A program made the translations under genes and the position numbers. The notes under the pieces were generated by a model, which was not told the DNA's origin, did not search any database, and worked only from the letters and a program-made list of their open reading frames with translations. A stretch of DNA of 64,000 nt from Alphaproteobacteria bacterium 43-37 (GTDB taxonomy: Bacteria > Pseudomonadota > Alphaproteobacteria > 43-37). The stretch is taken from contig MKSY01000016.1 in NCBI GenBank assembly GCA_001897475.1, forward strand, positions 1,177 through 65,176, read 5' to 3'. Every line of letters begins with the position of its first letter. Positions within the stretch are counted from its first letter, which is position 1. Shown here in pieces: positions 57,184 through 57,291 of the stretch.

Positions 57184-57291
57184 TTAACTGCCGCTGGTAG
57201 CAATTTCTAAGTATAGCCCCTTAGCGTCAAACATACGTTTCATTTTCGCGTCAGGCTTAGCAGCTTTACAGGTAATGTCAGTCAGCGGCAT
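57184..57291 (-). pseudogene. Remnant of a P4-type tyrosine integrase gene (N-terminal 35 codons only)
   Basis: Minus-strand translation MPLTDITCKAAKPDAKMKRMFDAKGLYLEIATSGS-stop matches the arm-binding N-terminus of tRNA-associated integrases (LTD..I..AKP..K...DG.GLYL.V.PSG.K.WR) and is truncated by a TAA. It lies 160 bp from the tRNA-Ser 3' end. Confidence 0.6.

What the first reader, a model, noticed from the sequence alone, without database searches (positions are those of the whole stretch)
57184..57291. Integrase stub adjacent to tRNA-Ser, not reported in the six-frame track
The minus strand encodes MPLTDITCKAAKPDAKMKRMFDAKGLYLEIATSGS followed by TAA. This is the characteristic N-terminal arm-binding segment of tRNA-site tyrosine integrases (LTDxxIxxAKPxxK...DGxGLYLxVxPSGxKxWR), cut off after 35 codons. 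It explains why a composition-deviant block sits at this tRNA. It also shows the element is old enough to have lost its recombinase, so it is fixed rather than mobile.
Basis: seen in the sequence. Interest (0 to 1): 0.6.

Follow-up and report, generated by a model that had tools for sequence, protein, structure and literature searches.

The report
Decayed integrase remnant beside tRNA-Ser
Just downstream of a serine tRNA gene lies the dead front end (about 66 of about 400 codons, with two stop codons) of a P4/SXT-type integrase, an ordinary scar of a mobile element that once inserted there and can no longer move.

Summary
Window 57291..57184 (-) encodes the 35-residue peptide plus TAA, 162 nt downstream of an intact tRNA-Ser(GGA) on the same strand. 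It is a true remnant of an integrase with an Arm-DNA-bind_3 (DUF4102) domain: Pfam gives E 1.4e-4 alone and 7.6e-9 when the TAA is read through. A profile of 52 full-length integrases hits the six-frame window once (57291-57097, E 1.8e-15).

Homology passes the first stop. It probably runs about 66 codons to about 57094, with two in-frame TAA at conserved Lys positions. No core-binding or catalytic fragment and no second copy of the tRNA 3' end exist anywhere in the 64 kb. The remnant is identical in three independent assemblies of the MAG 'Alphaproteobacteria bacterium 43-37'. So the recombinase is dead and nothing here can excise.

The 'composition-deviant block' claim is weak. The adjacent 1484-aa gene has native GC3, codon usage and dinucleotide signature; its higher GC comes from amino-acid content. 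It is lineage-specific and carries an OTU-like cysteine-protease domain, but whether the lost element delivered it is unresolved.

This is an ordinary pseudogene scar of low interest.

The parts
57454..57543 (-). Intact tRNA-Ser(GGA) gene, with CCA encoded. It is the presumed integration target; its 3' end would be the former attL.
   Evidence: ARAGORN; Rfam RF00005 54.8 bits, E 5e-10.
57292..57453 (-). 162-nt spacer between the tRNA 3' end and the integrase ATG, the former att/int-regulatory region. It holds a 12-nt direct repeat (minus strand CCAAATTTT[C/A]AT; + strand 57412-57423 and 57309-57320). It also holds an 8-nt inverted repeat, TGGGGGCA/TGCCCCCA (57291-57298 / 57321-57328). These may be arm-type sites; this is not demonstrated.
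   Evidence: the repeat finder. The spacer length is close to, slightly shorter than, the 175-232 nt seen in homologous tRNA-int loci and the ~150 nt between attP core and int in P4.
57169..57291 (-). Secure part of the integrase remnant: codons 1-41 of an Arm-DNA-bind_3 (DUF4102) domain. An in-frame TAA occupies codon 36 (57186-57184), in place of the conserved Lys of the GSKYWR motif.
   Evidence: Identity is 60-63% to two 65-67-aa Arm-domain proteins and 52-55% to annotated integrases in 101 plasmid records.
57094..57168 (-). Probable degenerate tail of the remnant, codons 42-66. A second in-frame TAA lies at codon 47 (57153-57151), aligned with the Lys of GKEK. Recognisable homology ends near 57094, which is taken as the deletion junction.
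   Evidence: The HMM alignment reaches profile position 64-65. The tail adds +6.7 bits (2 of 1000 shuffles) or +5 bits (5 of 500). Most IMG/VR tblastn alignments extend to residue 66. Pfam's own alignment stops at residue 47, so this part is less certain.
56865..57173 (+). Orphan 102-aa ORF with a signal-peptide-like N-terminus and a coiled-coil-like rest. It converges on the remnant and overlaps its tail in antisense. It may be a spurious or young ORF.
   Evidence: the ORF listing. No Pfam or NCBIfam family. Found only in this species.
52200..56654 (-). Lineage-specific 1484-aa gene with an N-terminal signal-like segment and a C-terminal hydrophobic segment. Window 52572-53267 encodes an OTU-like cysteine-protease domain. 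It may be cargo of the lost element, or it may be unrelated.
51675..52090 (.). Array of 22-nt tandem repeats and ~118-nt palindromic units at the far side of the 1484-aa gene. It belongs to a dispersed repeat family, with a second cluster at 5040-5330. It is not related to the tRNA att sequence.

Best explanation
The feature is a pseudogene fossil and has no function now.

Proposed history:
1. An integrative element (phage, satellite, ICE or island) carrying an integrase of the IntSXT/P4 type (N-terminal DUF4102 arm-binding domain) recombined into the 3' end of tRNA-Ser(GGA). This is inferred.
2. That placed its int gene ~160 nt downstream of the tRNA on the same strand. The geometry is shown.
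3. The gene then decayed. Two Lys codons became TAA, the stretch after codon 41 degenerated, and a deletion removed everything from about codon 66 onward. The core-binding and catalytic domains are therefore gone. This is shown.
4. The distal att repeat is also absent. Without a recombinase and without a second att site, nothing at this locus can excise.

The state is identical in three independent assemblies of the species. Whether the neighbouring 5.8-kb lineage-specific block (OTU-like giant protein, orphan ORF, repeats) is leftover cargo, or chromosomal DNA brought next to the stub by the deletion or rearrangement, is not resolved.
For: - The peptide and stop are as reported, next to the tRNA.
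- Pfam PF13356 gives 36 bits, E 7.6e-9 with read-through. NCBIfam PRK09692 integrase gives E 2.7e-5.
- tblastn against the plasmid collection finds 101 records; all but one of the ten records listed carry an integrase annotation under the match.
- P4, Legionella, Methylovorus and Moellerella integrases hit only 57291..57094-57169. The 52-sequence profile gives a single hit, i-E 1.8e-15, covering HMM positions 1-64 of 401.
- No integrase families appear in the other two minus-strand frames of 56600-57290.
- No partial copy of the last 48 nt of the tRNA exists in the window.
- Window 57090-57460 is found exactly in L001 (JGI 3300009070), L002 (SRR5272694) and L004 (ERZ24842104).
- Homologous integrases in IMG/VR sit 175-232 nt after a tRNA on the same strand in 17 of 60 loci.
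- DUF4102 defines the IntSXT subgroup, whose P4 cluster inserts downstream of tRNA genes (PMC8138268).
Against: - No att repeat, no other mobility gene and no foreign composition signature survive. The former element is inferred from the integrase fragment and its position alone.
- The head of the remnant (60-63% identity to homologues) is much better preserved than the tail (~25%). That is odd for uniform neutral decay. It leaves open that the true junction is at codon ~41-47, where Pfam's alignment ends.
- DNA of related species could not be obtained, so no empty or occupied site was seen.
Confidence: 0.92

Rival explanations
1. The stub is all that is left of an element that was deleted entirely. 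The adjacent block (102-aa ORF, 1484-aa OTU-like gene, repeats) is ordinary chromosomal DNA of this lineage and was never carried by the element. On this reading the stub does not explain the block. This rivals the reader's interpretation, not the identity of the stub.
For: - The 1484-aa gene has native GC3 (0.356 against 0.366 +/- 0.035), one of the lowest codon-usage distances in the window (0.052) and a low dinucleotide difference.
- Its only full-length homologue, P0140 (35% identity), lies on a contig with no tRNA and no integrase.
- No att repeat delimits an island.
- The left flank differs in all three related genomes in ways that look like rearrangement rather than simple insertion. 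Relative B has DnaK/DnaJ within 7 kb, and these are absent from the 57 kb to the left in this window.
Against: - The gene is lineage-specific: it found only itself in the word-indexed search of 5.8 billion proteins.
- It sits immediately next to the remnant.
- It is absent from the corresponding position in both relatives.
- An old island would be compositionally ameliorated anyway.
Confidence: 0.45
2. The 35-codon ORF is a functional small protein, for example a stand-alone arm-site-binding regulator domesticated from an integrase.
For: The ATG and the first 35 codons are well preserved (60-63% identity to homologues). Short 65-67-aa Arm-domain proteins exist in databases (P0001, P0002).
Against: - The peptide covers only profile positions 1-31 of the 83-position Arm-DNA-bind_3 model, which is too short for the fold.
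- Homology continues through the stop codon in frame, as expected for a recent nonsense mutation and not for a selected terminus.
- No Shine-Dalgarno-like sequence precedes the ATG (sequence).
- No conservation data exist across species.
Confidence: 0.03
3. The integrase is intact in reality. It only looks truncated because of an assembly error, an insertion splitting the gene, or a reassigned or read-through stop codon.
For: MAG assemblies can collapse or break at repeats.
Against: - The same 371-nt stretch is identical in three independent assemblies from different samples.
- No core-binding or catalytic fragment exists anywhere in the 64 kb, on either strand.
- After codon ~66 the frame shows no integrase similarity even with stops read as X.
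- Genes in the window form long table-11 ORFs, which gives no sign that a stop codon has been reassigned.
Confidence: 0.02
4. The resemblance of a short AT-rich ORF to integrase N-termini is due to chance.
For: The bare 35-mer scores below Pfam's gathering threshold (22.4 against 27 bits).
Against: E-values computed for the whole window are 1e-6 to 1.8e-15. The hit is unique in the window. It lies in the canonical position and orientation after a tRNA.
Confidence: 0.01

Closest known systems
P4-cluster / IntSXT-subgroup tyrosine integrases (N-terminal DUF4102 = Pfam PF13356 Arm-DNA-bind_3), e.g. phage P4 Int, pathogenicity-island and ICE integrases at tRNA genes
   Same: The N-terminal sequence signature is the same (LTD..[IV]..AKP..K.Y...D..GLYL.[IV]...GSKYWR). 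The gene starts ~160 nt downstream of a tRNA gene on the same strand. That compares with 175-232 nt in 17 homologous IMG/VR loci and ~150 nt from attP core to int in P4. The family description is taken from PMC8138268.
   Different: Only about 16% of the protein is left (66 of ~400 codons), with two nonsense codons. The core-binding and catalytic domains are absent, so it cannot be an active member. The target here is tRNA-Ser(GGA) in an uncultured alphaproteobacterium. The closest matches are only 52-63% identical over 40 residues.
Degenerate ('anchored') tRNA-linked genomic or pathogenicity islands with truncated or cryptic integrases (general knowledge, e.g. many enterobacterial PAIs)
   Same: An integrase pseudogene sits next to a tRNA, followed by lineage-specific DNA that encodes a putative host-interaction protein. 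No excision machinery remains.
   Different: No flanking direct repeat, no atypical codon or dinucleotide signature and no other mobility genes are present. The island status of the neighbouring DNA therefore rests on position and lineage-specificity only.
Bacterial and viral OTU deubiquitinases (nairovirus vOTU; bacterial OTUs of Legionella, Wolbachia, Rickettsia, Chlamydia; PMC7396840). This applies to the neighbouring gene only.
   Same: The domain has the C...H-aromatic-N arrangement (DGDCGF ... THFN) described for typical OTUs. A profile of 30 domain sequences hits vOTU chains, aligning both the Cys and His loops (E 2e-5). The top five Foldseek hits of a pLDDT-92 model are OTU domains.
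   Different: There is no Pfam OTU hit. The Foldseek scores are weak (E 0.08, TM 0.31-0.42). About 100 residues of helical insertion lie between the Cys loop and the beta-sheet. Activity is untested.

Membership tests
IntSXT/P4-type tyrosine integrase (DUF4102-containing) | N-terminal Arm-DNA-bind_3 (PF13356/DUF4102) domain | tested here: met
   With the TAA read through, the score is 36 bits against a gathering score of 27, E 7.6e-9, covering profile positions 1-37/83. A custom 52-integrase HMM covers positions 1-64, i-E 1.8e-15. The domain is only partial.
IntSXT/P4-type tyrosine integrase (DUF4102-containing) | Core-binding (SAM-like) domain after the arm domain | tested here: not met
   Nothing is found in any of the three minus-strand frames of 56600-57291. 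Nothing is found anywhere in the window with four integrases or with the 52-sequence profile.
IntSXT/P4-type tyrosine integrase (DUF4102-containing) | Catalytic domain with the RKHRH pentad and the tyrosine nucleophile | tested here: not met
   There is no hit to HMM positions 65-401 in the six-frame translation of the 64 kb. tblastn noise only, E > 0.4. No Phage_integrase Pfam family appears among the called genes.
IntSXT/P4-type tyrosine integrase (DUF4102-containing) | Gene located just downstream of a tRNA gene, same orientation (P4 cluster) | tested here: met
   The spacer after tRNA-Ser(GGA) is 162 nt, same strand. Comparable geometry (175-232 nt) occurs in 17 of 60 IMG/VR loci with homologous integrases.
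tRNA-linked genomic island | Flanking direct repeats derived from the tRNA 3' end (attL/attR) | tested here: not met
   No match was found to any 14-20-mer of the last 48 nt of the tRNA, allowing 1-4 mismatches, anywhere in the window. There were also no 20-25-mer matches with up to 3 mismatches.
tRNA-linked genomic island | Nucleotide composition or codon usage different from the host genome | tested here: not met
   GC is 0.458 (z about +1.5), but GC3 is 0.356 (z about -0.3). Codon-usage distance is 0.052, among the lowest in the window, and the dinucleotide difference is 38 against a mean of 69.
tRNA-linked genomic island | Absent from the same site in related genomes | tested here: inconclusive
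   Two relatives (Pyr_redox 79-80% identical) conserve the right flank but have different genes on the left, with no 1484-aa homologue and no integrase. Only gene lists were available, not DNA, and the flanks appear rearranged.
tRNA-linked genomic island | Other mobility genes (excisionase, transfer, phage genes) inside the block | tested here: not met
   The genes between 49762 and 57291 are LysR, small orphans and the 1484-aa gene, with no mobility families. UmuD- and UmuC-like genes at 45833-49323 are often element-borne, but this is only a lead.
OTU deubiquitinase (neighbouring gene only) | Catalytic Cys ... His-aromatic-Asp/Asn/Glu arrangement | tested here: met
   C16 and H220-F221-N222 of the domain are residues 1145 and 1349-1351 of the 1484-aa protein. 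Cys and His are near-invariant in 30 homologues. The motif definition comes from PMC7396840.
OTU deubiquitinase (neighbouring gene only) | OTU fold | tested here: inconclusive
OTU deubiquitinase (neighbouring gene only) | Match to the Pfam OTU family; ubiquitin or Ubl cleavage activity | tested here: not met
   No Pfam OTU hit was found for the protein, the domain or ten homologues. Activity cannot be tested with these tools.

The most novel reading that the evidence does not exclude
The remnant marks an old, fully ameliorated and immobilised island at tRNA-Ser. That island delivered a giant secreted or membrane-anchored effector carrying a previously undescribed OTU-like deubiquitinase domain to an uncultured, probably eukaryote-associated alphaproteobacterium. 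The domain has no Pfam model, about 100 representative proteins and a long helical insertion.
Probability: 0.25. Interest if true: 0.45.

Novelty: new member of a known kind. Interest (0 to 1): 0.2.

Why it matters
The remnant matters little. It is an unannotated integrase pseudogene that flags tRNA-Ser(GGA) as a past integration site in an uncultured alphaproteobacterium (MAG 43-37), and it is useful for correct annotation. It also fits other signs of gene decay nearby: a flavoprotein gene without a canonical start codon, and a terminase disrupted in another assembly.

The more useful by-product is the neighbouring gene. It belongs to an uncurated family of OTU-like cysteine-protease domains found in very large bacterial proteins, which would be worth testing for deubiquitinase activity.

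Tried and rejected
- Word-indexed protein search with the 41-aa stub gave only two short Arm-domain proteins and no full-length relative.
- Two scans of genome contigs with the neighbouring Pyr_redox protein, once as a single protein and once as an alignment, found nothing.
- One scan of metagenome contigs found only 32-33% identical proteins. No DNA of related species could therefore be compared.
- The two close relatives identified through their proteins (P0021, P0022) gave gene lists but no DNA.
- The search for an attR copy of the tRNA 3' end was negative.
- The search for frameshifted integrase fragments in other frames and elsewhere in the window was negative.
- The idea that the stub explains a foreign-composition block was rejected, because GC3, codon usage and dinucleotide signature are native.
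- Single-sequence AlphaFold of the OTU-like region was useless (pLDDT 36).
- phmmer of that region against PDB and Pfam was negative. Only the 30-sequence profile worked.
- The repeat array at 51675-52090 was considered as a possible distal att site. It was rejected because it is unrelated to the tRNA and belongs to a dispersed family also present at 5040-5330.

Full report
**1. The observation**

Translating window 57184-57291 on the minus strand gives MPLTDITCKAAKPDAKMKRMFDAKGLYLEIATSGS followed by TAA, exactly as reported. ARAGORN finds tRNA-Ser(GGA) at 57454-57543 on the same strand, and Rfam confirms it at 54.8 bits. A 162-nt spacer separates the tRNA 3' end from the stub's ATG.

**2. Is it an integrase N-terminus, and beyond chance?**

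Several independent searches agree:
- Pfam matches only PF13356 (Arm-DNA-bind_3, formerly DUF4102). The bare 35-mer scores E 1.4e-4 (22.4 bits, under the gathering score of 27). Reading the TAA as a sense codon and adding the next codons (YWRFN) gives 36 bits, E 7.6e-9.
- NCBIfam's integrase model PRK09692 matches at E 2.7e-5.
- tblastn of the 41-mer against 72,556 plasmid records finds 101 records at 52-55% identity. All but one of the ten records listed carry an integrase annotation under the match.
- The exact-word protein search returned only two 65-67-aa Arm-domain proteins, 60-63% identical.
- Four full-length integrases (P4, Legionella adelaidensis, Methylovorus, Moellerella) each hit the window once, at 57291 downward, with E 1e-5 to 3e-8. 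Everything else is noise at E > 0.4.
- A profile built from 52 non-identical full-length integrases fetched from IMG/VR hits the six-frame translation of all 64 kb exactly once. The hit is 57291-57097, profile positions 1-64 of 401, i-E 1.8e-15.

**3. Extent and state of the remnant**

The first TAA (codon 36, 57186-57184) replaces the conserved Lys of GSKYWR, and the frame continues with YWRF.

Beyond codon 41 the similarity is weak, and Pfam's alignment ends at residue 47. With the larger profile, residues 42-66 add 6.7 bits, and only 2 of 1000 shuffles of those residues reach that score. The 4-sequence HMM gave 5 of 500. Most IMG/VR tblastn alignments run to residue 66. In that tail a second TAA (codon 47, 57153-57151) aligns with the Lys of GKEK.

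I therefore take 57291-57169 as secure and 57168-57094 as probable. After that nothing integrase-like exists in any frame. The 637 nt up to the next gene could not hold the missing ~340 codons anyway. The head is much better preserved than the tail. I cannot explain this, and it keeps a junction at codon ~41-47 possible.

**4. Not an artefact**

Window 57090-57460 occurs identically in contigs from three different samples: JGI 3300009070, SRR5272694 and ERZ24842104. The organism is the MAG 'Alphaproteobacteria bacterium 43-37' (GTDB label 43-37 sp001897475).

**5. Position**

Among 60 IMG/VR loci with homologous integrases and upstream flank, 17 have a tRNA (tRNA-Arg CCT) ending 175-232 nt before the int start on the same strand. 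In P4 the attP core lies ~150 nt upstream of int. Published classification makes DUF4102 the hallmark of the IntSXT subgroup, whose P4 cluster integrates downstream of tRNA genes (PMC8138268). The geometry here (162 nt, same strand) is close to the canonical one, slightly shorter than in those loci.

The spacer contains a 12-nt direct repeat (11 of 12 identical) and an 8-nt inverted repeat that reaches the first base of the ATG. These may be arm-type or operator sites, but this is unproven.

**6. Mobility**

No copy of any part of the last 48 nt of the tRNA exists elsewhere in the 64 kb. No recombinase gene is present in the window or in the further 3 kb of the contig. With neither enzyme nor second att site, the locus cannot excise.

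**7. The 'composition-deviant block'**

The adjacent 1484-aa gene (52200-56654, minus strand) has GC 0.458, against 0.422 +/- 0.023 for the window's genes. The excess lies in codon positions 1 and 2. GC3 is 0.356 (mean 0.366), the codon-usage distance is among the lowest of all genes, and the dinucleotide difference is low. There is therefore no foreign signature. The block is either native or fully ameliorated.

The gene is lineage-specific:
- The word-indexed search finds only itself.
- Exhaustive HMMER finds one full-length homologue, P0140 (35% identity), on a contig without tRNA or integrase.

Two relatives, whose Pyr_redox proteins are 79-80% identical, keep the right flank. Relative A (P0021) shows Pyr_redox-MatE-terminase; relative B's (P0022) contig ends just after Pyr_redox. 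On the left they have quite different genes, no integrase and no homologue of this gene. Only gene lists were available. The differences look like rearrangement as much as insertion. Whether the block was cargo is therefore open; I put it near even odds.

**8. What the neighbouring gene is**

Most HMMER hits share only residues ~1127-1360. Thirty such segments align with a near-invariant Cys and the motif H.LHT.GLTHFNLL.

A profile of them hits nairovirus L-protein OTU domains in the PDB (E 2e-5) and OTUD3 (E 0.036). The vOTU alignments cover both the Cys loop and the His loop; the OTUD3 match covers the Cys-loop region only. AlphaFold with this alignment gives pLDDT 92.2. The five best Foldseek PDB matches are all OTU domains, but weakly (E 0.08-0.4, TM 0.31-0.42). 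A likely reason is a ~100-residue helical insertion.

The C...H-F-N order fits the typical OTU triad described by Schubert et al. (PMC7396840). Pfam has no match. The protein also has an N-terminal signal-like and a C-terminal hydrophobic segment. A secreted or anchored OTU-like protease is a reasonable but untested reading.

**9. Verdict**

The finding is real and correctly identified in essence: it is the N-terminal fossil of a P4/SXT-type integrase at tRNA-Ser. It is a routine kind of scar. The claim that it explains a deviant block is not supported by composition and cannot be settled without DNA of related genomes. Interest is low. The neighbouring OTU-like family is the only part that might repay further work.

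Noticed in passing
window 52200-56654 (-), domain at 52572-53267: The 1484-aa orphan protein carries an uncurated OTU-like cysteine-protease domain (DGDCGF ... THFN). About 100 representative homologues exist, mostly inside very large proteins, and none has a Pfam model. The profile hits nairovirus vOTU structures, and the AF2 model has pLDDT 92.
   Followed up: yes
window 57698-59173 (+): The Pyr_redox (MerA/Lpd-like) gene next to the tRNA is called from GTG 57920 (417 aa). The frame is open upstream and encodes the conserved FAD-binding N-terminus (KDFCIIGGGAGG), but without any ATG, GTG or TTG. Relatives are 491-492 aa with a Met start. Here 'AAT ATC' follows an AGGGAG Shine-Dalgarno sequence. 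This is either a lost start codon or a non-canonical ATC start.
   Followed up: partly
window 51675-52090 and 5040-5330: A dispersed palindromic repeat family occurs at both sites. It comprises 22-nt tandem units (TGTCTTCCCGCAACCCTCCTTT) and ~118-nt units that contain their approximate reverse complement. A 22-nt length difference between same-species contigs (L004 vs the window) may reflect copy-number variation here. The family is MITE/REP-like.
   Followed up: partly
window 45833-46477 (+) and 48040-49323 (+): UmuD-like (NCBIfam PRK10276, E 1e-49) and UmuC-like (E 2e-116) genes are separated by a divergent LysR gene, 8-11 kb from the integrase remnant. Such pairs are often carried by SXT-type elements. 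The old element may therefore have been larger, but nothing delimits it.
   Followed up: no
window 61109-62428 (-), next to tRNA-Arg(ACG) 62549-62625 (+): A lone large-terminase gene (Terminase_6N/6C) is conserved in synteny in a related genome, so it is probably a GTA-type or domesticated gene. In another assembly of the same species (L004) it has a 51-nt deletion and is split into two ORFs. A 139-aa Sel1-like ORF (60653-61072) lies between MatE and the terminase only in this species.
   Followed up: partly
window 56865-57173 (+): An orphan 102-aa ORF with a signal-peptide-like start overlaps, in antisense, the degenerate tail of the integrase remnant. Its stop codon lies within the last secure integrase codons (F40-N41). 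It may be spurious or a young gene.
   Followed up: partly
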